Of a stretch of 64,000 nt of DNA, positions 64-60,860 are shown one piece after another. Within the stretch, counting starts at the first letter, position 1; the number at the start of each line of letters is the position of its first letter. The notes beneath the pieces are model-generated. The model did not search any database. It was not told where the DNA came from and was given only the letters and a program-made list of their open reading frames with translations. The stretch comes from Sumerlaeia bacterium (GTDB lineage: Bacteria; Sumerlaeota; Sumerlaeia; MVZB01): the NCBI GenBank assembly GCA_041687335.1, contig JAWLCE010000001.1:168619-232618 (forward strand), given 5' to 3'. The translations under genes were made by a program, and so were the position numbers.

Positions 64-252
64 GGGCTTCGCCCTCCCCTTGCCCGCAGTCGATTTTGTT
101 GGATCATACTCCACCCCCGGCGGCGGATTCCAGTGCCGATCGGCGGGCCGGCGGACGGCCCTGCCGGTGAACCTTGTTGACCCGCTCGAGCGCGCCATGG
201 ATGATTTTATGAAATGAATGGCTACAAGAAATCGATGCGAGGGGGGGATGGG

Positions 253-1158
253 ATGATGGCTGGTCGCATTCGCAGGTTGATCGCTTTGTGTTCGCTGGCA
301 TTGCTGGCCATGACGGCCCACGGCGCCGAATCCGCGGACCGGATGCGCGTCGACCTGGACCTGGAGTATGCGAGCGTCGAGGGGCGGTCGCTGCGGCTCG
401 ATCTTTATCGGCCGCTTGCCGCCAATGAGGCCACCACGTTTCCCGTTGTGGTCTGGATCCACGGGGGTGGTTGGCGTTCGGGGACCCGCAAATCGGGCAC
501 GGCGCGCGCCGCGCAGTGGCTCGTCCCCGCCGGGATCGCGGTGGCGGGGGTGGAATATCGGCTCAGCGGCGAGGCGAAGTTCCCGGCGCAGATTCACGAT
601 TGCAAGGCGGCGGTGCGTTGGCTGCGCGCGCATGCGGACCAATACGACCTGGCCCCCGAGCGCATCGGCGCCTGGGGCAGCTCCGCCGGCGCGCACCTGG
701 CCGCGCTGCTGGGCGTCACCGCCGGCCATGCCGAGCTCGAAGGGGACCTGGGCCACGCCGACTTCCCCAGCCACATCAGCGCGGTCGTCGATTGGTGGGG
801 GCCGATGGACCTGCTGGAGCTCGCCGAGCTACGGCGCAATACCCCCCACCCGACGCTGATGGCACTGTTCGGGTTCCCCCCGCACGAGCAACCGGAGCGG
901 GTGAAACTCGCCAGCCCGATCCACCACGTCACCCCCGAATCCCCGCCGTTCCTGATTATGCATGGGCTGGAGGACACGGTCGTGCCGCCCTCCGAAAGCA
1001 TCGCCATGGACCGCATCCTGCGCGAGCACGGAGTCGAGAGCACACTGCATCTTTACGAAGGCGTGGGGCACGGAATCCGGGGACCCGATCTAAGCGAATG
1101 GCAAATTGACCGCAAGGTCGTGGAGTTCTTCATACAAACGCTCGGGACCACACACTGA
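253..1158 (+). CDS. secreted alpha/beta-hydrolase (fold-3 esterase/lipase family)
   Basis: Oxyanion-hole motif VVWIHGGGW and nucleophile elbow GSSAGAH are present. The N-terminus has a signal peptide (RLIALCSLALLAMTAHGAE). The ORF track starts at 214; I prefer the internal Met at 253. Confidence 0.8.
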   Translation: MMAGRIRRLIALCSLALLAMTAHGAESADRMRVDLDLEYASVEGRSLRLDLYRPLAANEATTFPVVVWIHGGGWRSGTRKSGTARAAQWLVPAGIAVAGVEYRLSGEAKFPAQIHDCKAAVRWLRAHADQYDLAPERIGAWGSSAGAHLAALLGVTAGHAELEGDLGHADFPSHISAVVDWWGPMDLLELAELRRNTPHPTLMALFGFPPHEQPERVKLASPIHHVTPESPPFLIMHGLEDTVVPPSESIAMDRILREHGVESTLHLYEGVGHGIRGPDLSEWQIDRKVVEFFIQTLGTTH

Positions 1159-1616
1159 GACCGGAGGCAGATTTTGGGGCAGCTTGAATTTGTGATTTTG
1201 CACATGCCTGAATTATTTATTCTTAGCAGGCCTGTTCGGTAGTCGCCGCCCCCGCCGGCAGCCAGCCCGCGGGGGCGTGCTGCGTTTGGGGGCTTGTTTG
1301 GCGGGCCTTTGTCCGGCTTGCCGCGATTCTATGGTGTTTTGCGGTCAATCGTTTATCGTCTTTTGCTTTTGGCCCTCAAGCGGCCTTGCCCAAAAATTGG
1401 TGCCAGAAGGCGATTCTCGTACCGCAAGTCCACAGCCGTTTCACCAAAACGCATGAACAAAGGCGAAACGCAATTAGCCGGGACGCATTTCTGACTTTCG
1501 CTTCCAGGGTCGGGATGCTTGATCCGATCCAATTCCCAAACCTCCTCGCGCTCTCCATCCATTCGCCTTCTTGAAATTAGCTGGAGGAGACACCGGCAGA
1601 GGATGTAGATTCCCAA

Positions 1617-3092
1617 ATGTGCAGCGAATTGTTAAGAGTGGGCTGTGACATGAGGTTGGATTACAAGACGCTGGAGGTCATGCAGAAGCTCAACGCGGCC
1701 TGGCGGCTGTTGCAGTCACCTCATGCGCCGCTGGTGGCCAGCTTTCTGGACCGGGTTTTTCTGGAGCCCAACGTGCGGATGATGGGGCAGGCGGACCTGA
1801 GCGAAGCTCTCGAGGACACGCTGTTCACGCTGCGCGAACAGCGGCCGGGCGCCTACCCGAGGACCGCGCTCGAATACCTCAACGACTGGGCCGATAACGA
1901 GAAAGGCTGGTTGCGCAAGTTCTACGCGGCCGGCTCGGATGAGCCGCAGTTCGACCTGACGCCGGCGGCGGAAAAGGCGCTCAGTTGGCTGGCCAGCCTC
2001 GCCGAGCGCTCCTTCGTCGGCACCGAGTCGCGCCTGTTGACGCTGTTCGAGTTGCTGCGCCAGATGTCGGAAGGCAGCGAGACCGACCCACAGGCGCGGA
2101 TCGATGAGCTGGAGCGGCGCCGCGCCGAGATCGACGCCGAGATCGAGCGGGTCAAGTCGGGCGACATCCCGCTGCTCAACGAGACGGCGGTGCGCGACCG
2201 CTTTCAGCAGTTCCTGCAGTTGGCGCGCGAGCTGCTGGGCGATTTCCGCGAGGTGGAGCACAACTTCCGCCTGCTCGACCGCCATGTGCGCGAGCGGATC
2301 GCGCTTTGGGAGGGGGGCAAGGGCGCGCTGATCGAGCAGATCCTCGGCGAGCGCGACGCCATCGCCGACTCCGACCAGGGGCGCAGCTTCCGCGCGTTCT
2401 GGGAATTCCTGATGTCGCAGAGCCGGCAGGAGGAGCTGACGCGTCTGCTGGGGCGCGTGCTGGAGCTGCCGCCGGTCGCCGAGCTGCATCCCGACGCGCG
2501 GCTGCGGCGGGTGCATTACGACTGGCTGGAGGCGGGCGAGCACACCCAGCGCACCGTCGCCCGGCTCTCGCAGCAGCTGCGCCGTTTCCTCGACGACCAG
2601 GCGTGGCTCGAAAATCGGCGGATCATCGAGATTCTGCGCAACATCGAGTCGGCCGCGCTGGCGGTGCGCGAGGCGCCGCCGGCTGGCCCCTTCATCTCGT
2701 TCCCCGAAAGCTCGGCCGAGATCGAACTGCCGATGGAGCGCCCACTTTTCACCCCGCCGATCCGGCCGGTGCTGCCCGACCTGGAGCTGGAGGCGGGCGA
2801 GGCGGAGGTCGATCTGGCCGCCCTTTACGCCCAAGTCGCGGTGGACAAGCTCGAGCTGGAGGGCAACATCCGCCGCTCGCTGCAGGCGCGCAGCCAGGTC
2901 GCGCTGACCGAATTGCTGGCCGAGCATCCGCTGCGCCACGGGCTGGCCGAGCTGGTGGTCTATCTCCACCTGGCCGCCGAGTGGCCCCATGTGGTGGTGG
3001 ATGAAGAACGCGCAGATGTGGTGGAATGGTGGTCCGACGAAGGCACGGTGCGCCGCGCGCGCCTGCCGGGAATTCTTTTTGTCAGAAGCTGA
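1617..3092 (+). CDS. jetA: Wadjet JetA (DUF3375-like; MksF/kleisin-like subunit)
   Basis: A 491-aa ORF whose N-terminus (LDYKTLEVMQKLNAAWRLLQSPHAPLVASFL) matches the DUF3375 pattern as I recall it. It is first in a four-gene co-directional cluster with JetB, JetC and JetD. Its stop overlaps the jetB start (TGATG at 3090-3094). An alternative start lies at 1650. Confidence 0.8.
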   Translation: MCSELLRVGCDMRLDYKTLEVMQKLNAAWRLLQSPHAPLVASFLDRVFLEPNVRMMGQADLSEALEDTLFTLREQRPGAYPRTALEYLNDWADNEKGWLRKFYAAGSDEPQFDLTPAAEKALSWLASLAERSFVGTESRLLTLFELLRQMSEGSETDPQARIDELERRRAEIDAEIERVKSGDIPLLNETAVRDRFQQFLQLARELLGDFREVEHNFRLLDRHVRERIALWEGGKGALIEQILGERDAIADSDQGRSFRAFWEFLMSQSRQEELTRLLGRVLELPPVAELHPDARLRRVHYDWLEAGEHTQRTVARLSQQLRRFLDDQAWLENRRIIEILRNIESAALAVREAPPAGPFISFPESSAEIELPMERPLFTPPIRPVLPDLELEAGEAEVDLAALYAQVAVDKLELEGNIRRSLQARSQVALTELLAEHPLRHGLAELVVYLHLAAEWPHVVVDEERADVVEWWSDEGTVRRARLPGILFVRS

Positions 3093-3715
3093 TGATGGAT
3101 CCGTCCTTGGAAAATTCCACGGCCACCGCGCCGCAGCTTGGGCAGGTCGTCGTGCCGCTACTCAAGGGGGTGATTTACCGGGATGCGAATCCCGAGCCGT
3201 GGAAGGCGCTGCTCGCGCTGCAGATGACGGTGCGCGAGTATGTTGCCGTGCTCGGGCTCGAACTGGAGCTGGACGAGGCCGAGGGGTATGCCTTTCTTCG
3301 CTCGCGCTCGGGGGAAGTCGCCGAGCAGCCCGAGGCGCCGCGGCTGGTGGCGCGCCGCCAACTCTCCTTCCCCGTCAGCCTGCTGCTGGCGCTGCTGCGC
3401 AAGAAGCTGGCTGAATCTGACGCCGGCGGCGGCGAGACGCGGCTGGTTCTTTCCCGCGACCAAGTCGTTGAGATGATCCGCGTCTTCCTGCCCGAGGGGA
3501 GCAACGAGGCGCGGCTGGTCGACCAGGTCGATCAGCACATCAAAAAAATAGCCGACCTGGGTTTCGTCCAGGAGTTACGCGGGCCGGAGAAGGTCTTCGA
3601 GGTGCGGCGCATCATCAAGGCCTTTGTCGACGCGCAGTGGCTTGCCGAATTTGAGCAGCGGCTGGCCGCCTATCGCGACCATGCCGCCGGCCGGAGCGAG
3701 CAGGACGATGCATGA
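3092..3715 (+). CDS. jetB: Wadjet JetB (DUF4194-like; MksE-like subunit)
   Basis: About 207 aa, acidic and helical (VVVPLLKGVIYRDANPEPWKALLALQ...). It sits between the DUF3375-like gene and the SMC-like ATPase. Its start overlaps the jetA stop and its stop overlaps the jetC start. Confidence 0.8.
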   Translation: MMDPSLENSTATAPQLGQVVVPLLKGVIYRDANPEPWKALLALQMTVREYVAVLGLELELDEAEGYAFLRSRSGEVAEQPEAPRLVARRQLSFPVSLLLALLRKKLAESDAGGGETRLVLSRDQVVEMIRVFLPEGSNEARLVDQVDQHIKKIADLGFVQELRGPEKVFEVRRIIKAFVDAQWLAEFEQRLAAYRDHAAGRSEQDDA

Positions 3716-6700
3716 ACTGGAAGAGCTGAGCCTGGATTTCATCGCCGATGATACGCAGGCCGGTTTCCGGCTGCGCCGGCTCGAGGTCTTCAACTGGGGC
3801 ACCTTCGACGGCCGCGTCTGGACGCTACGGCTGGACGGGCGCAACGGGCTCCTGACCGGCGACATCGGCTCGGGCAAGTCGACGCTGGTCGATGCGCTGA
3901 CGGTCCTGCTCGTTCCAACTCAGCGCATCACGTTCAACCGCGCAGCCGGCGCCGACACCCGCGAGCGCACGCTGCGCAGCTACGTGCTCGGCCATTACAA
4001 GTCCGAGCGTAATGATCTTTCGGGCAGCTCGCGGCCGGTTGGGCTGCGCGATCACAACAACTACTCGGTCATCCTCGGCGTGTTCCACAACGAGGGCTAC
4101 CAGCAGACGGTGACGCTGGCCGTCGTGTTTTACTGGGGCCAGAATCCGCAGGGGCAGCCCGAGCGGCTTTATGTGGCGAGCGAGGGGGACCTCTCGATTA
4201 CGAGCGAGTTCTCGCGGTTCGGTTCGATCGCCGCGCTGCGCAAGCGGCTGCGCGCCGCGGGCGCCGAGTGCCACGACAGTTATCCGCCCTACGGCGCGTG
4301 GTTCCGCCGGCGTTTCGGCATCCAGAACGAGCAGGCGCTCGACCTGTTCTACCAGACGGTCTCAATGAAATCGGTGGGCAACCTGACCGACTTCGTGCGC
4401 GGGCACATGCTCGAGCCGTTCGCCGTCGAGCCGCGCATCAAGGCGCTGATCGAGCACTTCGACGATCTCAACCGCGCGCATGAGGCAGTGCTCAAGGCCC
4501 GGCGCCAGATCGAGCTGCTCACGCCGCTGGTGAATGATTCCGTCCGGCATGCCGAACTGACCGCCGAGACCGAACGGCTGCGCGGCTGTCGCGAGGCGCT
4601 CAAGCCATGGTTCGCAGGCCTCAAGGCCCTGCTGCTCGACCGCCGGATCGAGTCACTGGCCGAGGACGCCGCCCGCCAGCAGGCGAAGAACGACCGGCTC
4701 GAGGAGCGGCAGCGAGCGCTGCGCACGCAGGCCGTCGAGTTGCAGGCCAGCATCTTCGAGCAGGGCGGCAACCGGATCGAACAGCTCGAGCGTCAGATCG
4801 CGCAGCGGGAAATCGAAAAGCGGGCGCGACTGGAGAAACATGGGAGATACGTGGAACTGGCCGGGGCCGCCGGCATCGCGCCGGCCGATGGCGACGAGGC
4901 GTTTGTCGTGCAGCGGGGCGAGATCGAGGCACTGCGCGAGGCGGCCGCCGCACGCGAAAGCGAGCTGCAAAACGAGCTGACCGAGCAGGAAGTGACCATG
5001 CGCCAGGGGCGCGAGGAGCTGCGCCTGCTGACGGTCGAAATCGACAGCCTGAAGGCGCGCCGCAGCAACATCGACTCGACCCAGGTCAAAATCCGCGAGG
5101 CCTTGTGCGCCGCGCTGGGCCTGGAAGAGCAGGACCTGCCCTTCGCGGGCGAGCTGATCCGCGTGCGCGAGGAGGAGCGTGACTGGGAGGGTGCGATCGA
5201 GCGCGTCATGCGCAACTTCGGCCTGTCGCTGCTGGTGCCCGACGAGGAATACACGCGCGTGGCCGATTGGGTCGATCGGACGCACCTCAAGGGCCTGCTG
5301 GTTTACTTCCGCGTGCGGGGCGACGGCCGCGCGCCGATCCCCACGCCGCACGCGCACGCGCTGGCGCGCAAGGTCGACATCCGCCCTGAATCGCCCTTCT
5401 ATCCATGGCTCGAGCAGCGGATCGCGCAGCGCTTCGACCACGTCTGCTGCGCGACGCAGGAGCAGTTCCGCCGCGAGAGCAAGGCGATCACACGCGCCGG
5501 CCAGATCAAGGCCCCCGGCGAGCGCCATGAAAAGGACGACCGCCACCGGATCGATGATCGCGAGCGCTACGTGCTCGGCTGGGACAACCGGGACAAGATT
5601 GAGGCGCTGGAGCAGAAGGCTCGTTTGCTTGAAGCGAGCATCGCCACGATCGGCGGGCGCATCGCTGCACTGCAAAAGGAACAGCAGGCCATCAGTGAAC
5701 GGCGCGCGGCGCTTGACAAGCTCGGTGAGTATCGCAGCTTTCAGGAGCTGGACTGGAAGCCTGTTGCACTCGAGATCGAGCAGCTCAAGGAAGAGAAACA
5801 GCGGCTCGAGGCGGCCTCGGACCTGCTCAGGGCGCTGACGGAGCGGCTGCGCGCCGTCGAGGCCGACGAGACGGAGGTCAATCGCGAGATCAAGGAACGG
5901 ATCGCGAGGCACAGCTCATTCGTTGAGAAGCGGGCGGCGGCGGAGGAGTTGCGCCGGCAGGCGCGCGAGACGCATGAGGCGGGCGGCTCGCTGACTGGCC
6001 ACTATGACGCCCTCACTGCGCTGCGCGCCGAGGCGCTCGGCGACCGGCAGCTCACCGTCGAATCCTGCGACAGCCGCGAGCAGGAGATGCGCGAATGGCT
6101 TCAGGCCCGCATCGACGCTGAGGACAAGCGCCTGCAGCGGATGCGCGACCGCATCATCGACGCGATGCGCTCCTACAAGGAAGAGTTCAAGCTGGAAACC
6201 CGCGAAGTGGACGTTGCCATCGAGGCGGCCGGCGAGTACGGCGCGATGCTCAGCGAGCTTGTGGGCAACGACCTACCCCGCTTCGAGCGGCGCTTCAAGG
6301 AATTGCTCAACGAGACCGCCATCCGCGAGATCGCCAACTTCCACGGTCAACTGGCGCGCGAGCGCGAACAGATCCGCGAGCGGATCGACCGCATCAATGC
6401 CTCGATGACACAAATCGACTTCAACCCGGGCCGTTACATCCGGCTCGAAGCCGAGCCGACACACGACACCGAGATCCGCGACTTCCTCACCGAATTGCGC
6501 TCCTGCACCGAGGGCGAGCTGACCGGCTCGACCGACGAGGAATACACCGAGAAGAAATTCCTGCAGGTCCGCAAGATCATCGAGCGCTTCCGCGGCCGCA
6601 CCGGCCTGAGCGAGATCGACCGCCGCTGGACAACCAAGGTGACCGACGTGCGCAACTGGTTCGTCTTTGCCGGCAGCGAGCGCTGGCGCGCCGACGACAC

Positions 6701-7076
6701 CGAGGATCAGCACCATTCCGATTCCAGCGGCAAGTCGGGCGGCCAGAAGGAAAAGCTCGCCTACACGGTGCTGGCGGCGAGCCTGGCCTACCAGTTCGGC
6801 CTGGAGTGGGGCGAGGTCCGCTCGCGCTCGTTCCGCTTCGTCGTGATCGACGAGGCCTTCGGCCGCGGCTCGGACGAGTCGACCCGCTATGCGCTGGAGC
6901 TTTTTGCCAGGCTCAACCTGCAACTGCTGATCATCACCCCGCTGCAGAAGATCAACGTGATCGAACCCTATGTGGCCGCGGTCGGGTTCGTTCACAATCA
7001 GGAGGGGCGTGCCTCGGTGCTGCGCAACCTGACGATCGATGAATATCGCGCCGAGAAGGCCAGGGAGGGCGCGTGA
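3708..7076 (+). CDS. jetC: Wadjet JetC (SMC/SbcC-like ATPase; MksB-like)
   Basis: The N-terminal Walker A motif is GDIGSGKSTLVDAL. A ~900-aa E/R/L/Q-rich coiled-coil region follows. The C-terminus carries the signature and Walker B/D-loop (SGGQKEKLAYTVLAASLAY...FRFVVIDEAFGRGSDEST). The start ATG at 3708 lies within ATGCATGA, overlapping the jetB stop. Confidence 0.9.
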   Translation: MHELEELSLDFIADDTQAGFRLRRLEVFNWGTFDGRVWTLRLDGRNGLLTGDIGSGKSTLVDALTVLLVPTQRITFNRAAGADTRERTLRSYVLGHYKSERNDLSGSSRPVGLRDHNNYSVILGVFHNEGYQQTVTLAVVFYWGQNPQGQPERLYVASEGDLSITSEFSRFGSIAALRKRLRAAGAECHDSYPPYGAWFRRRFGIQNEQALDLFYQTVSMKSVGNLTDFVRGHMLEPFAVEPRIKALIEHFDDLNRAHEAVLKARRQIELLTPLVNDSVRHAELTAETERLRGCREALKPWFAGLKALLLDRRIESLAEDAARQQAKNDRLEERQRALRTQAVELQASIFEQGGNRIEQLERQIAQREIEKRARLEKHGRYVELAGAAGIAPADGDEAFVVQRGEIEALREAAAARESELQNELTEQEVTMRQGREELRLLTVEIDSLKARRSNIDSTQVKIREALCAALGLEEQDLPFAGELIRVREEERDWEGAIERVMRNFGLSLLVPDEEYTRVADWVDRTHLKGLLVYFRVRGDGRAPIPTPHAHALARKVDIRPESPFYPWLEQRIAQRFDHVCCATQEQFRRESKAITRAGQIKAPGERHEKDDRHRIDDRERYVLGWDNRDKIEALEQKARLLEASIATIGGRIAALQKEQQAISERRAALDKLGEYRSFQELDWKPVALEIEQLKEEKQRLEAASDLLRALTERLRAVEADETEVNREIKERIARHSSFVEKRAAAEELRRQARETHEAGGSLTGHYDALTALRAEALGDRQLTVESCDSREQEMREWLQARIDAEDKRLQRMRDRIIDAMRSYKEEFKLETREVDVAIEAAGEYGAMLSELVGNDLPRFERRFKELLNETAIREIANFHGQLAREREQIRERIDRINASMTQIDFNPGRYIRLEAEPTHDTEIRDFLTELRSCTEGELTGSTDEEYTEKKFLQVRKIIERFRGRTGLSEIDRRWTTKVTDVRNWFVFAGSERWRADDTEDQHHSDSSGKSGGQKEKLAYTVLAASLAYQFGLEWGEVRSRSFRFVVIDEAFGRGSDESTRYALELFARLNLQLLIITPLQKINVIEPYVAAVGFVHNQEGRASVLRNLTIDEYRAEKAREGA

Positions 7077-8263
7077 GCTGGACCACTCCCGCCGACATTC
7101 GTGCGCAGGCACGCCGGTTATGGGAGAGCGGGCGGCTGCCGGCCGCGCTGGTCACGGGAGAGGAGCTCTTCCCGCGCCGGCTGGTGCTGAAGAAACCCGG
7201 CTCGGGCGAGCTGGCCGAACAGTTCGCGCGGGTGCGCGGGTGGATCGACACACTGCGCAAGGGCGAGGCGGACGGCTACCGCATCCGCTGGCGCGAGTTC
7301 AATCATCGCGTGCTCGGCGTCAACTCGTTGCCCGACGAGATCTGGATCGATTCGACCGACGATGCGCTGCGCCTGATCGGCCAGCGCACGGCCGCCGCGC
7401 GACTGCGCGAACTGGCGGATCAGGCCCGGACGCGCCGGCCCGAGTTGCTCGCCTGGCTCGCGCGCCGTCCGCTGCGCGCGCTCGAACTGGCCCCGGACTG
7501 GCCGCGCCTGCTCGACATCGTCGACTGGCTGGCCGCCCACCCGCGCCCGGCCATTTACATGCGCCAGCTCGACCTACCGGGGGTGCACACCAAGTTCATC
7601 GAAGCCCATCGCGGCGCCCTCGCCGAGATGCTCGAGCTTGTGCTGCCGGCCGAGGCCGTCGATTGCGAGGCCTCCGGCATCGGCGGCTTCTGCCGGCGCT
7701 ACGGGTTTCGCGATCGCCCCCTGCGCGTGCGCTTCCGCCTGCTCGATCCCGCGCTGGCCGTCTTTCCCGGTGGCGGGGAGCAGGATATCACCGTCAATCA
7801 GGATGTTTTTGCCGCACTCCGCTTGTCGGTCCGTCGTGTCTTCATCACCGAGAACGAGATCAACTACCTCGCCCTGCCGCCGGTTTCGGCCGGCATGGTC
7901 ATCTTCGGCGGCGGCTACGGCTTCGAGATGCTGTCTGGCGCCGATTGGCTGCACGATTGCGCGGTGCATTACTGGGGCGACATCGACACTCACGGCTTCG
8001 CGATCCTCGACCAGCTGCGCGCGCGCCTGCCGCACGCGCATTCCTTCCTGATGGACCGCGAGACCCTGCTGGAACATCGCGCCCTCTGGGGCGAGGAAAG
8101 TCGGCCCGAAAAGCGCGACCTTCACCGGCTTACGCAGCCCGAAACAGCTCTCTATGATGACCTGCGTGAGGACCATTTGGCCCCGCGCCTGCGCCTTGAA
8201 CAGGAAAAAATCAGCTTTGACTGGGTCCGTCAAACTCTCAGCGGTCTCGGATTGATCGGTTGA
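7073..8263 (+). CDS. jetD: Wadjet JetD (DUF3322 N-domain plus DUF2220/Toprim-like nuclease domain; MksG-like)
   Basis: A 396-aa ORF with a GTG start overlapping the jetC stop (GTGA). The C-terminal region has a Toprim-like acidic motif (YWGDIDTHGFAILDQLR) preceded by ENEINYL. Its position and size fit JetD. Confidence 0.85.
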   Translation: MSWTTPADIRAQARRLWESGRLPAALVTGEELFPRRLVLKKPGSGELAEQFARVRGWIDTLRKGEADGYRIRWREFNHRVLGVNSLPDEIWIDSTDDALRLIGQRTAAARLRELADQARTRRPELLAWLARRPLRALELAPDWPRLLDIVDWLAAHPRPAIYMRQLDLPGVHTKFIEAHRGALAEMLELVLPAEAVDCEASGIGGFCRRYGFRDRPLRVRFRLLDPALAVFPGGGEQDITVNQDVFAALRLSVRRVFITENEINYLALPPVSAGMVIFGGGYGFEMLSGADWLHDCAVHYWGDIDTHGFAILDQLRARLPHAHSFLMDRETLLEHRALWGEESRPEKRDLHRLTQPETALYDDLREDHLAPRLRLEQEKISFDWVRQTLSGLGLIG

Positions 8264-8514
8264 AAGTGTATAGCGGACACCTGTTGCGGAATAATCAATC
8301 CTGCCGGGGTGCTGTTGGGAGCTTCGCCATCCGCCAAGGACCCCCTGGCCCGCCGTTGCGCATCTTGCTGCCGGCATCAAGCTACTCGCAACTTGATCTA
8401 AGCGCCGGTGCATGCAAGGATGACCGCAAGTGACAAGATGGTCGCTCTGTCCGGTGGTGCGATCGCACCGTGATCGCCTGCCGATTCTGGAATGGCAGTT
8501 GCCTGGAGGGCGTG

Positions 8515-9483
8515 ATGAGTCAGCAATCATTGATGCCGGGTGCCTCTGGATCGGGGCGCGCGCCGAGCGTGCTCGCCCCCGATTGGTGGGACTACACCAC
8601 GCTCGATCGCGAGCTGTTGGCAGAAGCCGCACGCCTCAGCGCCGAGGATCTGGGCGCCCTGTCGCGGCCCGGATTTCAGGTGAAGTTTTTTGACACGCTC
8701 GAGGAGTTTTACCTGGCCGAGGCGCTCGAGTATATCCAGGCCTGGCGCCAGTCCAGTGCCGACAATCCGGTTGGGATTTGCGGCCCGATCGGCCCCACCG
8801 AGCAATTGCCGCTGGTGGCGCGGCTGGTCAACGAGCTCAATCTGTCATTGCGCGACGCCCACTTCTGGGGGATGGATGAATGGGTGGTGGACGGACGCGA
8901 GGTTCCCGAGGACCACCCCCTGTCGTTCGCAAGGGCTGACATGGAGCTGTGTTTCAACCGGATCGCCCCGGAGCTTTCGATGCCGCGCGAGAACCTGCAC
9001 TTTCCGAAGGCTGATACCACCGATTACCGTCGCAGCTGGGACGGCTCGATCCGTTGCGCGATCATGCAGGGGGGGCAGGGCGACGTGAAGCACTGGGCCT
9101 TCAATGATCCGCCGCGCCGCGAGGGTGCCTGGGTCGAATCACCACCCCCGCCCGAGGAATACCTCAAGTTGCCCACGCGCGTCGTCGACCTCCACCCGCT
9201 CACCATCATGCAAAACGCGCGCACTTCGGGGGGCGGCATGGTCGACCTGGTGCCGACGCAGGCGGTCACAGTCGGTCCGCTCGAAACCTGGCGCGCCGAG
9301 AAGGTCTCGATCTGGCACGCCGGCATGCACGACAACCCGTTCGGCCTGCGACTGACCGCACTGATGATCAGCAAGGGACTGCCCGACTCGGCGGTGCCGA
9401 TGTCGCTGCTGGCGCTGCACCCCAACGTGCAGTTCAATTACTATCGGCCCGCCATCGGCACGTGCAGCGTGGAGATGCATTGA
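8515..9483 (+). CDS. glucosamine-6-phosphate deaminase/isomerase (NagB)-family protein
   Basis: [17 protein letters not shown] aligns with the NagB TFNMDEYVGLPKEHP motif, and [11 protein letters not shown] aligns with NagB GNDGHIAFNEP. Start chosen at the internal Met at 8515. Confidence 0.6.
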
Positions 9484-9485
9484 GG

Positions 9486-10295
9486 ATGGCCACCGATCCA
9501 CGCAAGGTCGCATTTGCCGTCGCGGCGCATCCCGATGACATTGAGTTCAACATGGCCGGGACGCTGATGCTGCTCGGCCAGGCGGGTTACGAGCTGCATT
9601 ACATGAACCTTGCCGACGGCGCCTGCGGATCGCAGACGATGACTCGCCAGCAGACGATCCGGACGCGGCGAAGTGAGGCGCGGGAGGCCGCCCGGCTCAT
9701 CGGCGCGGTGCATCATCCATCGTTGGGAACTGACCTGGAGATCACCTACGAGCCGAGCCTGTTGCGCCGGCTCGGGTCGGTCATCCGCCGGGTCAATCCG
9801 ACGATCCTGCTGATTCCCGCGCTCTCGGACTACATGGAGGACCACATGATCACCGCCCGGCTGGCGGTGACGGCGGCCTTCGCCCGCGGCATGCGCAATT
9901 ACCCGGTCAGCCCCCCGGTCGCGCCGGTGGAGGGGGAGCTGGCGCTGTATCACGCCATGCCGCACGGCCTGCGCGACGGGATGCGGCGGCGCCCACGCGC
10001 CGGTCAATATGTGGACATCGCATCAGTATTGGAACGCAAGCAGCAGATGCTTGCCTGCCATCGCAGTCAGCAGGACTGGCTCGACACGAGCCAGGGGATG
10101 AATTCATATCTCCAGGCGATGACGGATCTGTCGCGGGAAGTGGGTCGGCTCTCTGGCCGTTTCAAGTATGCCGAAGGCTGGTGCCGGCACCTGCACCTGG
10201 GATTTTCGGCCAGGGAAATAGATCCGCTGGGGGAGGCTCTCGGGGCCAAAGTGATCGTGGATCAGCGATATGAAAAGTCTCTCGCCAAGTCATGA
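9486..10295 (+). CDS. PIG-L/LmbE-family N-acetylglucosaminyl deacetylase
   Basis: The AHPDDIEF zinc-binding motif typical of LmbE/PIG-L deacetylases is present. The ATG at 9486 lies 2 nt after the NagB-like stop. Confidence 0.75.
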   Translation: MATDPRKVAFAVAAHPDDIEFNMAGTLMLLGQAGYELHYMNLADGACGSQTMTRQQTIRTRRSEAREAARLIGAVHHPSLGTDLEITYEPSLLRRLGSVIRRVNPTILLIPALSDYMEDHMITARLAVTAAFARGMRNYPVSPPVAPVEGELALYHAMPHGLRDGMRRRPRAGQYVDIASVLERKQQMLACHRSQQDWLDTSQGMNSYLQAMTDLSREVGRLSGRFKYAEGWCRHLHLGFSAREIDPLGEALGAKVIVDQRYEKSLAKS

Positions 10296-10314
10296 GATAA
10301 GGAAAAGGAAAACG

Positions 10315-11841
10315 ATGGCGGTCATGGGGGTCGACATTGGCACGTCGGGCTGCAAGGCGGCCGTGTTCGATGACCGCGGCCGCCAGCTGTCGCGTGCCTA
10401 TCGGGAGTATTCGCTGATCCATGAGCAGCCGGGCTGGGCCGAGCTCGATCCGGACGAGGTCATGGACAAGTGCGTGGAAGTGATCCGCGAGGCGGCGCGG
10501 GCCGCACCCGAGCCGGTGGAGGCGCTTGCGATCTCGAGCCAGGGCGAGGCATTCACCGCCGTCGATGCACGGGGCCGCCCGCTCTGCCGGGCGATGGTCT
10601 CATCGGATGCACGCGCGGCGGATCTGGCCCGCGACTGGAGCGAGGTGTTCGGGCGGGAAAAGCTCTACCGGATCACGGGTCACACCGCCCATCCCTTGTT
10701 CACGCTTTTCAAGCTGCTCTGGCTGCGCGAGCGGCGGCCCGAAATCTGGCGCGCGGCGGCACGATTCCATTGTTTCGAGGACCTGCTGCACGCGCGGCTG
10801 GGGCTCGATCCGGCGATCGGCTGGTCGCTGGCGGGGCGCACCATGCTGTTTGACGTCAACCGGCATGAATGGAGCCGAGAGATCCTCGATGCGGTGGGCC
10901 TTGCGCCGGAGCGGCTTGCCCGCCCACTTGCCTCGGGGGCGATCGTCGGCACTTTGAGTGGGACGATGGCCGACCAGCTCGGTCTGGCTGCGGGCGCCAC
11001 GGTGGCAACGGGTGGACACGATCAACCCTGCAACGCGCTCGGCGGGGGGGGCGTGCGCGACGGCGTGGCGGTCTATGGCCTGGGCACGGTGGAGTGCATC
11101 ACCCCCGTCTTTGGGCAACCGGTGATGAGCCGCGAGCTGTTCGAGGCCAATCTGGCGACCTATGATCATGCCATTCAGGGGATGTATGCCACCGTGGCCT
11201 ACAGCCTGACCGGGGGCAATCTGCTGCGATGGTTCCGCGACCAGTTCGGCATGGAGGAGGCACGCGAGGCGGATCGCCTGGGCGTCAGCCCCTATGAGTT
11301 GCTGCTGGGGGCGATGCCGGCGGAACCGACAAATCTTCTGGTCCTGCCCTATTTCACTCCCTCGGGGACACCGTATTTCGATGCCAGCACGGCTGGGGCA
11401 GTCCTCGGGCTGCGGCTGACGACCACCCGCTGGGAACTGCTGCGCGCGCTGCTCGAGGGGGTGACGTATGAAATGCGGCTCAATCTTGAAATTCTGGGCC
11501 GGTCGGGGGTTGCGATCGACGAGCTGCGCGTCACCGGCGGGGGGGCCGTCAACCGCGCGTGGATGCAACTCAAGGCCGATATCATGAACCGTTCGATCGT
11601 GCGTCCTCGCGTGACCGAGGCAGGGTGCCTCGGAGTGGCGATGCTCGCCCGCGCCGCCCGTGACGGCGGCAACGTGCGTGAGCTTGCCGACGCCTGGGTC
11701 GAGCGGGATGAGGCGTTCCAACCCGATCCGACAAACGCCGCCCGATACGATGAGCGATTCGAGGATTACCGCAGACTTTATCGGGCTGTCAGGGACTTCG
11801 AGGCGGAGGGGCGGCGAAGCCGGCCGACAACCGGCCGTTGA
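10315..11841 (+). CDS. FGGY-family carbohydrate kinase (xylulokinase/glycerol-kinase-like)
   Basis: The N-terminus MAVMGVDIGTSGCKAAVFD (FGGY N-domain) and a C-domain with GGGA motifs are present. Roughly 500 aa. Confidence 0.8.
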   Translation: MAVMGVDIGTSGCKAAVFDDRGRQLSRAYREYSLIHEQPGWAELDPDEVMDKCVEVIREAARAAPEPVEALAISSQGEAFTAVDARGRPLCRAMVSSDARAADLARDWSEVFGREKLYRITGHTAHPLFTLFKLLWLRERRPEIWRAAARFHCFEDLLHARLGLDPAIGWSLAGRTMLFDVNRHEWSREILDAVGLAPERLARPLASGAIVGTLSGTMADQLGLAAGATVATGGHDQPCNALGGGGVRDGVAVYGLGTVECITPVFGQPVMSRELFEANLATYDHAIQGMYATVAYSLTGGNLLRWFRDQFGMEEAREADRLGVSPYELLLGAMPAEPTNLLVLPYFTPSGTPYFDASTAGAVLGLRLTTTRWELLRALLEGVTYEMRLNLEILGRSGVAIDELRVTGGGAVNRAWMQLKADIMNRSIVRPRVTEAGCLGVAMLARAARDGGNVRELADAWVERDEAFQPDPTNAARYDERFEDYRRLYRAVRDFEAEGRRSRPTTGR

Positions 11842-12198
11842 TCGTCCAGATCGTCGTGGGCAACATCGGGCGCTCGTAGTGCGCGGGCGCGAGCCGGCGG
11901 GGGAGAGCTTCTCGCCGGCGCAATACGTCATCGACCGCCCCTGCGTAGCCAGCTCGCTGATGAGCGTCGCGCATTCGCGGGTGCTCGGCTCGGAACGGCC
12001 TCTGAAACCGCCGGATGCGATGCGACACCCACAAGATGGGCAGCGGGGAATTAGGGACACCCCCTATCTTCGTGTTGGAAGACGCCCCGATAGCAAGATG
12101 AACGTTTATAAAGTCATACTTGTGTCCGAAAAGACTTTCCAATCTAGATCAATATTCCACCCACAGCGTGAAATGCAGTGGAAACGAAAGGTGAGAAG

Positions 12199-13203
12199 AT
12201 GACCAAGGTTGCGATCAATGGCATGGGACGCATCGGCCGCGCCACCTTCAAGATCCTAATGGAGCACGAGACGCTCGAGCTGGTGGCGGTCAACGACATC
12301 GTGCCACCCGACAATATCGCCTACCTGCTCAACTACGACACAGTCTACGGCCGGCTGAATCAGCCAGTCAGAGCCGAAGGCGACGCGCTCGTGCGCAATG
12401 GCTTCCGCGTCCAAATGCTGGCTGAGAAGGATCCCGCCAGACTGCCGTGGAAGGAATTGGGCATCGACGTGGTTTTCGAGTGCACGGGGATCTTCACGAA
12501 GACCGAAGACCTGAAGAAGCACCTGGAGGCGGGGGCGCAGAAGGTGATCTTGTCGGCGCCGGTCAAGGATGAAGAGACGCCGATGGTCGTGCACGGGGTC
12601 AATGACCCGAAGGAAGGGCTGCGCGTGATCAGTTGCGCGAGTTGCACGACCAACTGCATCACGCCGGTGATGGAGATCCTCGGCCGGCGGCTGGGGATTC
12701 TCAAGGCGACCATGACGACGATTCACGCCTACACCTCGACACAGCAGATTGTGGACGGGCCGAGCAGGAAGTGGCGGCGCGGCCGGGCCGGGGCGATGAA
12801 TCTGGTGCCGACCAGCACGGGCGCGGCCAATGCCACAACGAAGGCGCTGCCGCAGTTTAGCGGCAAGTTCAATGGCGTGGCGGTGCGTTGCCCGGTGCCG
12901 GTGGGTTCGGTGGCGGACATTGTGGCCGTGAGCGAGCGGGCGACCGACGTCCAGGAGGTCAACCGGATCTTTCGCGAGGAGGCAGAGAGCACACGCTACC
13001 GCGGCATCCTCGGCGTCAGTGAGGACGAGCCGGTATCATCGGACATCATCCAAGACCCGCGCGCCGCGGTGATCGACCTGGCGATGACACAGGTGGTGGA
13101 TGGGGATCTCATCAAGGTGTTTGCCTGGTACGATAACGAGTGGGGCTACGCCAGCCAGATGGTGCGCGAGGCTGCGCATCTGGCGCAGCTGCACAACGCA
13201 TAG
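12199..13203 (+). CDS. gapA: glyceraldehyde-3-phosphate dehydrogenase, type I
   Basis: NAD-binding motif VAINGMGRIGR and the active site SCTTNCITP are present. A Shine-Dalgarno-like GGTGAGAAG sits before the ATG at 12199. Confidence 0.9.
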   Translation: MTKVAINGMGRIGRATFKILMEHETLELVAVNDIVPPDNIAYLLNYDTVYGRLNQPVRAEGDALVRNGFRVQMLAEKDPARLPWKELGIDVVFECTGIFTKTEDLKKHLEAGAQKVILSAPVKDEETPMVVHGVNDPKEGLRVISCASCTTNCITPVMEILGRRLGILKATMTTIHAYTSTQQIVDGPSRKWRRGRAGAMNLVPTSTGAANATTKALPQFSGKFNGVAVRCPVPVGSVADIVAVSERATDVQEVNRIFREEAESTRYRGILGVSEDEPVSSDIIQDPRAAVIDLAMTQVVDGDLIKVFAWYDNEWGYASQMVREAAHLAQLHNA

Positions 13204-13541
13204 CTCATTTCGGCTGCAAGACAAATTTTCACCTGCTGTTGGGATTCCACCTGCATCGAGATGCGGAGCCGCTCCTTCACTGCCCCTGGTTGGGGGACAT
13301 GGGGACTCCTCATGCGTCAGAGGTGCTTTGGTTCAATACGCGCTTACCAGCCATCCAAGGTACGGATCAATCGGGGGTGCTGCAATCCATCACTCGCTGG
13401 AGCAGCATTTTGCCCGCGGCGGATAAGTCGTGGGCACCCCCTCGAGCCGCAGCACCCGAATTCCACCTTTACCTTTGCCGCAGTCATGGCCAAGATTGTT
13501 CGTACGCGGCAGACGCAAGATCCAAGTCGGAGCCATACGCG

Positions 13542-16500
13542 ATGGGAATGAAGCATTCACGAAGCTCGGGTTCCATTCATGCAGGTTGCTCAACATTTGC
13601 GCTCCTGACTCTCTACGGCCTGATCTTCTGCGCCGGTCTCTCCCTCCCTGCAAGCGCCGCCGATGAAGACCAGCTTCGCGAAGAGTTCATCCGCCCACCC
13701 GACAGCGCCAAGCCGCAAACCTGGTGGCATTGGATGAACGGCCACGTGACGCGCGAGGGGATTACGCGCGACCTGGAGGCGATGAAGCAGGCTGGCCTCG
13801 GCGGCTTTACCCTGTTCAATGTCTCCGAAGGCACGCCCGAGGGGCCGGTCGTCTACCTGAGCGACGAATGGTGGGAGCTCATGCGGCACACGATCGCCGA
13901 GGCGGAGCGGCTCGGGCTCGAAATGTCGATTGAGAATTGCCCCGGCTGGGCCACCACCGGAGGCCCATGGGTCACACCCGATCAGGCGATGCAGGAGGTC
14001 GTCTGGACCGAGACCCAGGTCACCGGACCGACGGTCTTTGAGCAGACCCTACCGATTCCGGAGCCGGCATTGGGACTCGAGCGCGACATGCGGCGCGATC
14101 CGATCGTAAACCGGCGGTACTATGTCGATCGCGAGGACGTCCGCGGATACTACCGCGACATCGCGCTAATGGCGTTCCCGACGCTGGCGAGCGACCGGGG
14201 CGAGGAGCCCTACCGGCTCGACAATTGGCGCGCCAAGGCGGGTTACGCCAAATTGACCACGGGGCATGAGCCCGATCCGCGGGAAGCCCCCGATGGTGAT
14301 GTAATCAAAATTGAAGAAATGATTGATCTGAGCGCTCACATGGACGCACAGGGGCGGTTGACCTGGAACGTGCCGCCCGGCGAGTGGACGATCCTGCGCG
14401 TCGGCTACCAGCCGACCGGGCGGCAAAACCATCCGGCCCCCCCGGCGGGGCGGGGGCTCGAGACCGATAAAATGACGGCGTCCGCGACCGACATGCATTG
14501 GGAACATGCGATTGCGCCGGTCATACGCGAGGCCGCCGGACGGGCGGGGCAGGCGTTTACCTGTGTCCTGATCGACAGCTACGAGGCGGGCCACCAGAAT
14601 TGGTGCCAAACTTTTGAGCGCGAGTTCACGCAACGGCTCGGTTACGACCTGCGCCGATACCTGCCCTCGCTGACGGGGCGCATAGTCAAGGACGTGCCGA
14701 CGACCGAGAATTTTCTCTGGGATTTCCGCAAGACGATCGGCGAGCTGATCGCGGAAAACTATTACGGCCGCTTTGCCTCGCTCTGCGAGCAAAATGGGCT
14801 GACTTTCATGTGCGAGCCCTATGGAATGTACGGCAACGCCAATGACTTTGCCGTCGCCGGCCTCGTCGATCTCCCGATGGCCGAATGGTGGGCTTTGCGC
14901 AAGTTGCCCATCTTCGACCCCACGGCCCGCCTGGCGGCATCCGCCGCACATACCTATGGCCGGACGATCGTGGGCGCGGAGGCATTCACCGGCCCGCCGG
15001 GGCGCATCTTTGAAACGCATCCCTACGCCATCAAGGCCCAAGGCGACCACTTCTTCTGCGAGGGAGTCAACCGATTCATCCTCCACACATTCGTGCATGA
15101 TCCCAATGGCCGATCACCCGGGTTTGGCCTTGGCCCCTATGGCTCACGCTTCGACACGCGCAATACATGGTGGCCCTTTGCCCACGGCTGGTTCGATTAC
15201 CTCGCGCGCTGCCAGTATCTGCTCCAGCAGGGTGAATTTGTGGCCGATATGCTTTATTTTGCCGGGGAAGATACTCCGCTGGCGGCCCGGTCGCGAGACG
15301 CGCTCGAGCCCGTTCCCCCCACCGGCTATCATTATGATTTCTGCAACCGAGAAATCCTTGAGCGACTGGAAGTACGCGATGGCCGGCTTGTCCTGCCGGG
15401 AGGGATGAGCTACCGCGTGCTGGTGCTCCCGCCCGCACGGTGGATGCGACCGGAGCTGCTGGCCCGAATTGAACGGCTCGTGCTTGCGGGCGCCACGGTG
15501 GTCGGCCCCCGGCCGCTCGGGGTGCCCGGACTCGCCGGCGGCACCGAGGCGGAAGCAGAACTGCGGAAGATCGCAGATCGGTTGTGGGCCGATTGCGATG
15601 GCCAGAACATGACGATGAAAGTTCATGGCAAGGGGCGGATTTATTGGGGACGGCCGTTGGAAGCGGTCTTAGGCGAACTGGATTTCCTGCCCGATTTTCT
15701 CGTGCCCACGGACGGTGACGGGATTGAATTCATCCACCGCCGGCTCGACGGCACTGAAATTTACTTCATTAGCAATCAGCAATCTCAATCGCGGACGATC
15801 GAGGCTCAGTTTCGGGTGAACGGCATGACGCCCGAGCTTTGGCACCCCGATAGCGGAGTCACCGAAGCCGCGCCGAATTTCAAACTCCTCCCCGACGGCC
15901 GGACGGCGGTCACACTCGAGCTCGACTCCTCGGGCTCGGGGTTTGTGGTTTTTCGGCCTTCCTTGAACGACGAAAGCGGAGTGACACCTCCAACGGTCAT
16001 GATCCCTGACGACGCGCCGCCGATTGAACTGGCCGGTCCTTGGGAAGTTTCATTCCCCCCCGGCTGGGGCGCGCCCGCGCGGGTGGAGCTGCCCAAGCTG
16101 ATTTCGTTGACCGAGCACGAGCATCCCGATGTGAAGCATTTCTCGGGGATCGCCACCTACCAGATCGAGGTGGAGCTTCCTGCGGAGCGCCTTGGCGCGG
16201 GTCGGCACCTGCGGCTCGACCTGGGAGAGGTGCAGGTCATGGCGGAGGTCGTGGTCAATGGTGAAAACCTTGGCGTGCTCTGGAAAGAGCCTTATTGCAT
16301 CGACGTGACGGCGGCGATGCGGCCCGGTCGCAATCAGTTGCAAATCCGCGTCGCCAACTTGTGGCTGAACCGCCTGATCGGCGATTGTCAGTATCCTGAT
16401 GATGGAGAGTGGACGGAAGATATCGTCAAGACCCCCGGCTCGGGCGAGGGGCTGGTGAGAATTCCTGAATGGGTCGTGAACGGCACCACCCGACCATCAG

Positions 16501-16661: not shown

Positions 16662-16902
16662 CTGGTCTGGCAACCCCTCGCCGCCCCAGCCCCCTCACCC
16701 GTGTCCAACGGGATGCAGAGGCTTGGAGACGCAGAGGAAGTGCTTGGTCAACTCCGCTGCGGTGGGTTATGCTCTTGGACCGTGGCCCGGCCCGGGCGCG
16801 CCGCCAGATCTTTCTTGACCATGTCGATTGGTTTAATGAAGATTGATGAGCAGGGTGTGCGCTCGCCGCCGGCTGCAAACCCACAACCAAGGCAACCGCC
16901 CG

Positions 16903-45675: not shown

Positions 45676-45710
45676 AATGCCCCGCCGCCACCAACGCAAT
45701 CTTGCGGGTC

Positions 45711-58989: not shown

Positions 58990-59028
58990 TTATGGCTGGA
59001 AACGTGCGGCAGATGAGGTGGGGGACGA

Positions 59029-59709: not shown

Positions 59710-59755
59710 CCATCCAGAACATTATCAGCAATCAGCCGGAGTGGAGTTCGTCATC

Positions 59756-59990
59756 ATGCGCGCAATCTGGATGATATGTCTGACGTCGGCGGTCATCGCG
59801 CTCGGGCCGGATTGCCTGGCGACAGTGCTGGGAGTTACAACGCCGGAGAGGTATCCTTGGCTATATGGCGATTGTCATGAATCCCTTTACTTGCGTTTGG
59901 GCCCCAAGCTGCGGACTTTTGTGTCGCCCGCAGCTTAAATGGCGCCCAACCGCGGCTGCCCGGCTCGAACAGATCCACCTAGGTGGTGCC
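59756..59990 (+). pseudogene. decayed 5' fragment of GH5 gene (copy 1 of duplication)
   Basis: MRAIWMICLTSAVIALGPDCL matches the signal peptide of the intact GH5 (MLRAIWMIGLTSAVMALGPGCL). Downstream, PTAAARLEQIHLGG matches PAATARLEAIQLDEDG but in a shifted frame. Similarity is then lost. Confidence 0.55.
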
Positions 59991-60147
59991 GACCCACCCT
60001 CCCCGCCCCGTGCTGCGGTCGCACGCGACGACGGATCAATTTCATGGTTTCATTCTCCATACGAATCATTCACGTGGGGTTGACAACTTGGCCGCAGCGC
60101 TTGACTATTTATTGGTGGAAACGTGCGGCAGATGAGGTGGGGGACGA

Positions 60148-60849: not shown

Positions 60850-60860
60850 TGGAGTTCCTC

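What the first reader, a model, noticed from the sequence alone, without database searches (positions are those of the whole stretch)
1617..8263. Complete type I-like Wadjet (jetABCD) anti-plasmid condensin operon with fully overlapping gene junctions
Four co-directional genes of the sizes and order expected for Wadjet are present: JetA DUF3375-like (491 aa), JetB DUF4194-like (~207 aa), JetC SMC/SbcC-like ATPase (1122 aa), and JetD (396 aa). JetC has an N-terminal Walker A (GSGKST), ~900 aa of coiled-coil-rich sequence and a C-terminal Walker B/D-loop (VVIDEAFGRGSDEST). JetD has a Toprim-like WGDIDTHGFAIL motif. Every junction overlaps (TGATG, ATGCATGA, GTGA), which implies translational coupling and fixed stoichiometry. 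From established knowledge, Wadjet restricts circular plasmid DNA by loop-extruding JetABC and JetD cleavage. The system is described, but it is the only clear defence system in the window and sits in a housekeeping and catabolic context rather than an obvious mobile island.
Basis: partly seen in the sequence, partly recalled or inferred. Interest (0 to 1): 0.55.

Follow-up and report, generated by a model that had tools for sequence, protein, structure and literature searches.

The report
Ordinary type I Wadjet anti-plasmid operon
This is an intact four-gene Wadjet (jetABCD) system, a well-described bacterial defence that cuts incoming circular plasmids.

Summary
All four proteins match the type I Wadjet models end to end: JetA1 E=3e-218, JetB1 5e-91, JetC1 1589 bits, JetD1 8e-155. 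They also match the expected Pfam families and the solved JetA, JetB, JetC and JetD/MksG structures.

- **JetC:** it keeps the Walker A, signature and Walker B motifs.
- **JetD:** it keeps the Toprim metal-binding residues E260, D303 and D305. A confident model (pLDDT 91.7) superposes on the MksG nuclease (Foldseek E=1e-20, TM 0.70-0.75).

Minor corrections:
- jetA most likely starts at 1650, giving 480 aa rather than 491.
- Overlapping junctions are the rule in this Wadjet clade: B/C overlaps by 8 nt in 56 of 70 loci and C/D by 4 nt in 52 of 61.
- Gene overlap does not fix the stoichiometry.

The surroundings are chromosomal housekeeping and sugar-catabolism genes. I saw no integrase or transposase and found no other defence system. 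Operon GC and codon usage match the host genes. The nearest relatives are only 65-73% identical and lie in other phyla, which points to old horizontal transfer.

Verdict: a new member of a known kind, low interest.

The parts
1159..1649 (+). Intergenic region upstream of jetA, the presumed promoter and leader of the operon
   Evidence: 491 bp with GC 0.54 against 0.655 for the window. No sigma-70 consensus was found, no Rfam match, and no Pfam hit for the 87-aa antisense ORF at 1353-1616. The promoter role is inferred from position only.
1650..3092 (+). jetA, the kleisin subunit (MukF-like, DUF3375), 480 aa; the longest ORF starts at 1617 (491 aa)
   Evidence: Pfam DUF3375 E=6e-160, profile positions 6-474 of 474. 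PADLOC JetA1 PDLC00457 E=3e-218, 1-478 of 480. Solved JetA 8dk1_A E=1e-20 and 8q72_E E=6e-18. The 480-aa form is the one in the public collection.
3092..3715 (+). jetB, the KITE subunit (MukE-like, DUF4194), 207 aa; its start shares 1 nt with the jetA stop
   Evidence: Pfam DUF4194 E=4e-47 and MksE E=7e-18. PADLOC JetB1 PDLC00474 E=5e-91, 8-202 of 207. Solved JetB 8dk1_E E=3e-12. It aligns to chain residues 50-218, so it lacks the roughly 40-aa N-terminal extension of the solved 250-aa JetBs.
3708..7076 (+). jetC, the SMC/MukB-like ABC ATPase, 1122 aa; its start overlaps jetB by 8 nt
   Evidence: Pfam AAA_29 (residues 22-82) and SbcC_Walker_B (977-1067). PADLOC JetC1 PDLC00512, 1589 bits, 4-1120 of 1123. 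A single end-to-end alignment to solved JetC 8dk2_C, residues 19-1115 against 30-1108, E=9e-58. Walker A G54-SGKST-59, signature S1010-GGQ-1013, Walker B F1044-VVIDE-1049.
7073..8263 (+). jetD, the nuclease subunit (N-terminal arm/CAP-like DUF3322 plus C-terminal Toprim), 396 aa, GTG start overlapping jetC by 4 nt
   Evidence: Pfam DUF3322 E=2e-58 and JetD_C E=2e-59. PADLOC JetD1 PDLC00530 E=8e-155. Solved MksG 8b7f E=2e-19 and E. coli JetD(E248A) 8q72_M E=3e-10; the mutated E248 position aligns with E260 here. E260, Y282, D303 and D305 are invariant in 34 homologues. AF2 model pLDDT 91.7. Foldseek against 8b7f E=1e-20, TM 0.70/0.75.

Best explanation
This is an intact chromosomal type I Wadjet (JetABCD, also called MksBEFG or EptABCD) defence operon.

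**How it most likely works.** The steps below are inferred from homology to the characterised E. coli GF4-3, P. aeruginosa PA14, Bacillus and C. glutamicum systems.
1. JetA (kleisin), JetB (KITE) and JetC (SMC ATPase) assemble into a dimer-of-dimers DNA motor.
2. The motor loads on DNA and extrudes loops using ATP.
3. On a small circular molecule the two motor units run into each other once the whole circle has been extruded.
4. This stalled state recruits or activates a JetD dimer.
5. The Toprim sites of JetD (here E260, D303, D305, with Y282 nearby) cut the bent DNA and linearise the plasmid. The chromosome, very large replicons and linear DNA are spared.

**Expression.** The four genes are probably transcribed as one unit from the 491-bp upstream spacer. 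Their overlapping junctions probably couple translation.

**Shown here:** gene order, family membership of all four subunits, intact ATPase and nuclease motifs, and the JetD fold.

**Inferred:** expression, complex assembly, and anti-plasmid activity in this organism.
For: - **Family membership.** All four proteins give full-length, very high-scoring matches to the Pfam Wadjet families and to the PADLOC type I models.
- **Solved relatives.** All four find solved Jet subunits by sequence.
- **JetC.** The Walker A, signature and Walker B motifs are intact.
- **JetD catalytic residues.** E260 aligns with the E248 position of E. coli JetD, whose E248A mutant does not cleave DNA. D303 and D305 align with the second pair of Mg2+-binding residues, D290 and D292 (paper 10.1101/2022.10.04.510915). 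E260 and D303 also correspond to MksG E236 and D279, whose alanine mutants lose nuclease activity (PMC10123090). These residues are invariant in 34 homologues.
- **JetD fold.** The model (pLDDT 91.7) matches MksG and P. aeruginosa JetD over its whole length.
- **Conserved architecture.** The same ABCD order and the same 8-nt and 4-nt overlaps occur in most of 80 related loci and in the two closest relatives.
- **Replicon distribution.** Relatives in the plasmid collection are rare (50 of 72,556 records). The twelve records listed are all 0.48-2 Mb replicons, which fits the published size limit of about 100 kb for restriction (abstract of 10.1101/2022.10.04.510915).
Against: - Nothing found here contradicts this reading.
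- No experiment exists on this locus or its subclade.
- JetD is only 22-24% identical to the solved JetD/MksG proteins.
- JetB lacks the N-terminal extension of the solved JetBs.
- No promoter or terminator consensus was detected, so expression is unproven.
- The coiled-coil arms and hinge of JetC were not modelled. They are inferred from the end-to-end alignment with solved JetC.
Confidence: 0.9

Rival explanations
1. The complex serves mainly as a chromosome-organising condensin, like MksBEF or MukBEF, and plasmid defence is a secondary or lost role.
For: The operon sits among housekeeping genes with no mobile-element genes seen. Its GC content and codon usage match the host (r=0.98), so it looks long-resident. 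[quoted passage not shown]
Against: JetD is present and full length, with every Toprim catalytic residue conserved. Per the same review, the condensin derivatives are the ones that lost JetD. All four proteins score best on Wadjet type I defence models. The nearest relatives are scattered across unrelated phyla at 65-73% identity and sit next to transposases. That is the pattern of a mobile defence system, not of a vertically inherited condensin.
Confidence: 0.04
2. The locus is a decaying or inactive remnant of Wadjet that no longer functions.
For: There is no recognisable sigma-70 promoter or intrinsic terminator. The locus is a singleton at 90% identity in a 15-billion-protein collection. 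Activity has not been tested.
Against: All four reading frames are intact and of the same length as the family models. The coding-type GC3 signal is strong, 0.80-0.88. All ATPase and nuclease motifs are kept. The coupled junctions are preserved exactly as in relatives. The promoter scan covers only the E. coli-type consensus, which may not apply to this phylum.
Confidence: 0.04
3. The large ATPase is a generic SbcC/Rad50/RecF-type repair protein, or a Lamassu LmuB, whose neighbours merely resemble Wadjet genes by coincidence.
For: The Pfam domains on JetC carry SbcC-type names (AAA_29, SbcC_Walker_B). There is a weak partial PADLOC hit to LmuB at E=2e-10.
Against: JetC1 scores 1589 bits over 1117 of 1123 profile positions, against 39 bits for LmuB. 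Rad50 NCBIfam scores 18 bits against a cut-off of 700. No SbcD/Mre11 or LmuA partner is present. Instead the JetA, JetB and JetD partners are all there at high score.
Confidence: 0.01

Closest known systems
Type I Wadjet JetABCD of E. coli GF4-3 (PDB 8as8, 8bfn, 8q72, 9qx*) and P. aeruginosa PA14 (PDB 8dk1-3, 7til)
   Same: The four subunits occur in the same order. JetC aligns end to end (E=9e-58 and 4e-55). JetA, JetB and JetD are all detected by plain sequence search. The Toprim E/DxD residues and ABC ATPase motifs are conserved.
   Different: The sequences are distant: JetD is 22-23% identical in the structural alignment. JetB is about 40 residues shorter at the N-terminus (207 against about 250 aa), and JetA is about 20-35 residues shorter. 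This locus belongs to a different type I subclade, whose best PADLOC models are PDLC00457/474/512/530.
MksBEFG of Corynebacterium glutamicum (MksG nuclease, PDB 8b7f)
   Same: MksG is the best structural and sequence match for JetD (phmmer E=2e-19, Foldseek E=1e-20, TM 0.70/0.75). E236, Y258 and D279 of MksG correspond to E260, Y282 and D303 here, with identical spacing.
   Different: Identity is 24%. The hosts belong to different phyla.
Uncharacterised type I Wadjet loci in Desulfobacterota, Chlorobia, Methylococcales, Burkholderiales and other groups (L001-L080, L084, L086)
   Same: JetA is 65-73% identical and JetD 58-66% identical. Gene order is ABCD, and the 8-nt B/C and 4-nt C/D overlaps are the same.
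   Different: The flanking genes differ. The two closest relatives have DDE transposases beside the operon, while none was seen here. None of the top hits is from Armatimonadota, the probable host phylum of this window.
MukBEF / MksBEF chromosomal condensins
   Same: They share the SMC-kleisin-KITE core. JetB also matches Pfam MksE.
   Different: Those systems have no JetD/MksG nuclease gene. Here jetD is present and translationally overlapped with jetC.

Membership tests
Wadjet type I (JetABCD) | Four co-directional adjacent genes in the order jetA-jetB-jetC-jetD | tested here: met
   ORF map and junction sequences. The same order is seen in 60 of 80 related loci, the others mostly cut by contig ends.
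Wadjet type I (JetABCD) | JetA: MukF-like kleisin with DUF3375 | tested here: met
   PF11855 E=6e-160, full profile. JetA1 E=3e-218. Solved JetA hits.
Wadjet type I (JetABCD) | JetB: MukE-like KITE with DUF4194 | tested here: met
   PF13835 E=4e-47 and PF21980 MksE. JetB1 E=5e-91. Solved JetB hits.
Wadjet type I (JetABCD) | JetC: MukB-like SMC ATPase with Walker A, signature motif and Walker B split by a long arm and hinge | tested here: met
   Motifs at residues 54-59, 1010-1013 and 1044-1049. JetC1 1589 bits over the whole model. Single end-to-end alignment with solved JetC. The arm and hinge geometry was not modelled separately.
Wadjet type I (JetABCD) | JetD: DUF3322 arm/CAP-like domain plus Toprim domain with the conserved Glu and DxD metal site | tested here: met
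   PF11795 and PF09983. E260, D303 and D305 are aligned to the catalytic residues and invariant. The model matches MksG and JetD structures.
Wadjet type I (JetABCD) | Type I rather than type II or III by sequence similarity | tested here: met
   The best models for all four proteins are the type I Jet models. Type II/III models reach only E=4e-4 (JetB2), 5e-7 (JetC2) and 3e-4 (JetD3).
Wadjet type I (JetABCD) | Restricts small circular plasmids by ATP-dependent loop extrusion and JetD cleavage | not testable with these tools
   This needs transformation or conjugation assays or in vitro cleavage. It is known for homologues (papers).
MukBEF/MksBEF condensin | Three-gene SMC-kleisin-KITE system without a nuclease subunit | tested here: not met
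   A full-length, catalytically intact jetD overlaps the end of jetC.
SbcCD / Rad50-Mre11 | Rad50/SbcC ATPase scoring above the family cut-off, with an adjacent SbcD/Mre11 phosphoesterase | tested here: not met
   NCBIfam Rad50 scores 18.4 bits against a cut-off of 700. The neighbours are JetB and JetD, not a phosphoesterase.
Lamassu (LmuABC) | LmuB SMC-like ATPase with LmuA effector and LmuC | tested here: not met
   There is only a partial LmuB hit (E=2e-10, residues 610-1049), far below JetC1. No LmuA or LmuC matches were found among the neighbours.

The most novel reading that the evidence does not exclude
This locus belongs to a large, experimentally untouched subclade of type I Wadjet. 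It has a short JetB without the N-terminal extension and only about 22-25% identity to the solved JetD proteins. It sits in a native-looking chromosomal position in an Armatimonadota genome. That subclade might differ from the E. coli and Pseudomonas paradigms in substrate choice or regulation, or might have taken on a partial chromosome-organising role.
Probability: 0.05. Interest if true: 0.4.

Novelty: new member of a known kind. Interest (0 to 1): 0.12.

Why it matters
It matters mainly as annotation. The organism, probably an uncultured Armatimonadota, carries an intact anti-plasmid system. That predicts poor uptake of small circular plasmids, so anyone trying to make this lineage or a relative genetically tractable should delete or evade it. 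Deleting Wadjet has improved plasmid transfer in other non-model bacteria (for example Clostridium cellulovorans, PMC12287153). The wide phyletic scatter of relatives at 65-73% identity adds one more example of horizontal spread of Wadjet. It raises no new mechanistic question.

Tried and rejected
1. **Insertion test.** I searched homologues of the downstream neighbour (8515-9483) and read the context of two close ones. Gene order around that gene is not conserved at 76-79% identity, so presence or absence of Wadjet at this site could not be scored. The window's own contig could not be retrieved.
2. **Island boundaries.** I looked for flanking direct or inverted repeats, tRNA genes and Rfam elements and found none.
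3. **Promoter and terminator scan.** There were no promoter-like sites, and terminator-like sites were no more frequent than in shuffled sequence. This is uninformative for a non-model phylum.
4. **Compositional evidence of recent transfer.** The operon GC is 0.667 against 0.655 for the window, and codon usage correlates at r=0.98 with the other genes. So there is no such evidence.
5. **Other defence systems.** PADLOC on 20 further ORFs gave only generic PLD-domain hits to DrmC and SAM-methyltransferase hits to mad2. I rejected these as defence systems because no partner genes are present.
6. **Rad50/SbcC and Lamassu readings of JetC.** Both were rejected on score and partner genes.
7. **Structure of JetC.** I did not model it. 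The end-to-end alignment with solved JetC made it unnecessary.
Full report
**Observation.** The + strand between 1617 and 8263 carries four consecutive ORFs: 1617-3092, 3092-3715 (in-frame ATG within the longer ORF 3026-3715), 3708-7076 (in-frame ATG within 3624-7076) and 7073-8263 (GTG start).

The junctions were read directly from the sequence:
- TGA(3090-3092)/ATG(3092-3094) share 1 nt.
- ATG(3708-3710) lies 8 nt inside jetB, whose stop is TGA 3713-3715.
- GTG(7073-7075) overlaps the jetC stop TGA 7074-7076 by 4 nt.

- JetC Walker A G54-SGKST-59, signature S1010-GGQ-1013, Walker B F1044-VVIDE-1049 followed by AFGRGSDEST.
- JetD W301-GDIDTHGFAIL-312.

All four frames show a strong coding signal, with GC3 of 0.80-0.88.

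The one correction concerns the jetA start. The protein held in the public collection for this exact sequence is the 480-aa form beginning at 1650, and the 491-aa form is absent. The best JetA model aligns from residue 14 of the long form. JetA in the two closest related loci is 483 aa.

**What it is.**
- **Pfam:** DUF3375 (E=6e-160, full profile) for protein 1; DUF4194 (4e-47) plus MksE for protein 2; AAA_29 and SbcC_Walker_B at the two ends of protein 3; DUF3322 plus JetD_C (both about 1e-58) for protein 4.
- **PADLOC:** JetA1 (3e-218), JetB1 (5e-91), JetC1 (1589 bits, 1117 of 1123 profile positions) and JetD1 (8e-155). Type II and III models score only at E=1e-4 to 1e-7, so this is type I.
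- **Solved structures by sequence:** each protein finds the corresponding subunit. JetA matches 8dk1 and 8q72, JetB matches 8dk1 and 8as8, JetC matches 8dk2 and 8as8 in one alignment from residue 19 to 1115, and JetD matches MksG 8b7f, E. coli JetD 8q72 and P. aeruginosa JetD 7til.
- **NCBIfam:** only an 18-bit Rad50 hit against a cut-off of 700, which rules out a generic Rad50/SbcC reading.

**Is the nuclease intact and Toprim-folded?**
- In the alignment with E. coli JetD(E248A), the mutated position falls on E260 of the ITENE motif, and the WGDMD motif falls on W301-GDID-305.
- The E. coli paper names E248, D290 and D292 as the Mg2+-binding Toprim residues and shows that E248A abolishes cleavage (10.1101/2022.10.04.510915).
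- In MksG, the E236A and D279A mutants have drastically impaired nuclease activity, and Y258 is the proposed catalytic tyrosine (PMC10123090). The 43- and 22-residue spacings are identical here (E260, D303, Y282).
- All of these residues are invariant in an alignment of 34 homologues.
- An AlphaFold2 model built on that alignment has mean pLDDT 91.7. Foldseek against the PDB returns MksG (E=1e-20, TM 0.70/0.75 over the whole chain), then P. aeruginosa and E. coli JetD, and nothing else significant.

**Mechanism (inferred from homologues).**
- In the characterised type I systems, JetABC forms a dimer-of-dimers SMC motor and JetD is the nuclease. [quoted passage not shown]
- Cleavage happens when the two motors collide after extruding the whole circle, and JetD binds the bent DNA (10.1101/2023.11.03.565488; PMC10889018).
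- Given the intact motifs, I assign the same mechanism here, at about 0.85 for the activity and 0.95 for family membership.
- Nothing about expression or activity was or could be tested.

**Overlapping junctions.**
- Across the 80 related loci fetched with JetA, B/C overlaps by exactly 8 nt in 56 of 70 loci and C/D by 4 nt in 52 of 61. A/B is either overlapping (-4 or -1) or separated by only 2-5 nt in most.
- The two closest relatives have overlaps of 4 or 1, 8 and 4 nt.
- The feature is real but is a clade-wide property, not something special to this locus.
- It supports translational coupling, which is an inference. It cannot by itself fix stoichiometry, because the solved complex has a JetA dimer with two JetB dimers and two JetC dimers.

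**Context and origin.**
- *Host.* The downstream neighbour (8515-9483) has its best hits, at 75-79% identity, in proteins that sources name glucosamine-6-phosphate isomerase from Armatimonadota. The host is therefore probably of that phylum.
- *Near neighbours.* Upstream is a BD-FAE esterase. Downstream are a PIG-L deacetylase, an FGGY kinase, GAPDH, a GH106 rhamnosidase and a sulfite reductase.
- *Rest of the window.* It holds DnaB, HisF, KsgA, HU, a pseudouridine synthase, NadB, an AcrB/HlyD efflux pair, glycosyltransferases and transporters.
- *Mobile-element signals.* No integrase, transposase, tRNA or Rfam element was seen. No repeats flank the operon.
- *Other defence systems.* PADLOC on 20 other ORFs gave only generic domain hits.
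- *Composition.* Operon GC (0.667) and codon usage (r=0.98) match the other genes.
- *Relatives.* All four proteins are singletons at 90% identity. The nearest JetA and JetD are 65-73% identical and lie in Desulfobacterota, Chlorobia, Methylococcales, Burkholderiales, Victivallales, Clostridia and Acidobacteriota. The two closest loci sit next to DDE transposases.
- *Reading.* The simplest reading is an old horizontal acquisition that has since been ameliorated.
- *Insertion test.* A direct test failed because local gene order is not conserved in the available relatives.
- *Plasmids.* In the plasmid collection, relatives occur on only 50 of 72,556 records. The twelve listed are 0.48-2 Mb replicons, in line with the known size limit.

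**Caveat noticed.** Third-position GC skew is near zero for all ten genes at 0.2-16.7 kb (Wadjet, the esterase and the sugar operon). It is strongly negative on the + strand for nearly all genes at 16.8-51 kb, whatever their orientation. The block holding Wadjet thus differs in strand bias from its neighbour. This could be a skew switch, an old rearrangement or acquisition of the whole 17-kb block, or noise. It does not change the identification.

**Verdict.** It is a new sequence-level member in a little-studied phylum, with no unusual architecture. Interest is low.

Noticed in passing
window 200-16700 versus 16800-51000: Third-codon-position GC skew, read on the + strand, is about zero (-0.14 to +0.13) for all ten genes in the first 16.7 kb: esterase, jetABCD, nagB-like, PIG-L, FGGY, GAPDH and GH106. 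It is -0.10 to -0.48 for almost every gene from 16.8 to 51 kb, regardless of orientation, and weak again at 51-63 kb. The boundary lies near 16661/16843. It could be a replication-skew switch, an old inversion, an acquired block, or noise.
   Followed up: partly
window 59000-61000: This is a low-GC patch (0.52-0.53 against 0.655 for the window). It holds two ORFs, 59029-59709 (226 aa) and 60148-60849 (233 aa), with no Pfam or PADLOC match. It may be foreign DNA.
   Followed up: partly
window 8515-16661: Directly downstream of jetD is a co-directional sugar-catabolism cluster: a nagB-like gene that sources name glucosamine-6-P isomerase but that has no Pfam hit, a PIG-L deacetylase, an FGGY kinase, GAPDH and a GH106 alpha-L-rhamnosidase. 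Taking the longest ORFs, two of its junctions also overlap (9462/9483 and 10270/10295).
   Followed up: partly
window 1159-1649: The 491-bp spacer before jetA has GC 0.54. It contains an 87-aa antisense ORF (1353-1616) with no Pfam hit, and no sigma-70-type promoter. How the operon is regulated is unknown.
   Followed up: partly
window 22097-23290: This two-PLD-domain protein gives weak PADLOC hits to DrmC and MkoB (best E=2e-15) through the generic PLD domain only. It sits next to a methyltransferase and a double GT4 glycosyltransferase, with no DISARM partners. It is probably a lipid or envelope enzyme, not a defence gene.
   Followed up: partly
window 44098-45699 and 55552-57108 (- strand): These are two long ORFs (533 and 518 aa). 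The first has a strong coding-type GC3 skew. Neither has any Pfam or PADLOC match.
   Followed up: no
L084 1-464 and L086 7354-8331: The two closest Wadjet relatives (JetD 65-66% identical) are flanked by DDE transposase genes (DDE_Tnp_1 and IS240). L084 also has a weak Phage_portal hit upstream. In those genomes the operon therefore sits in a mobile context, unlike in this window.
   Followed up: no
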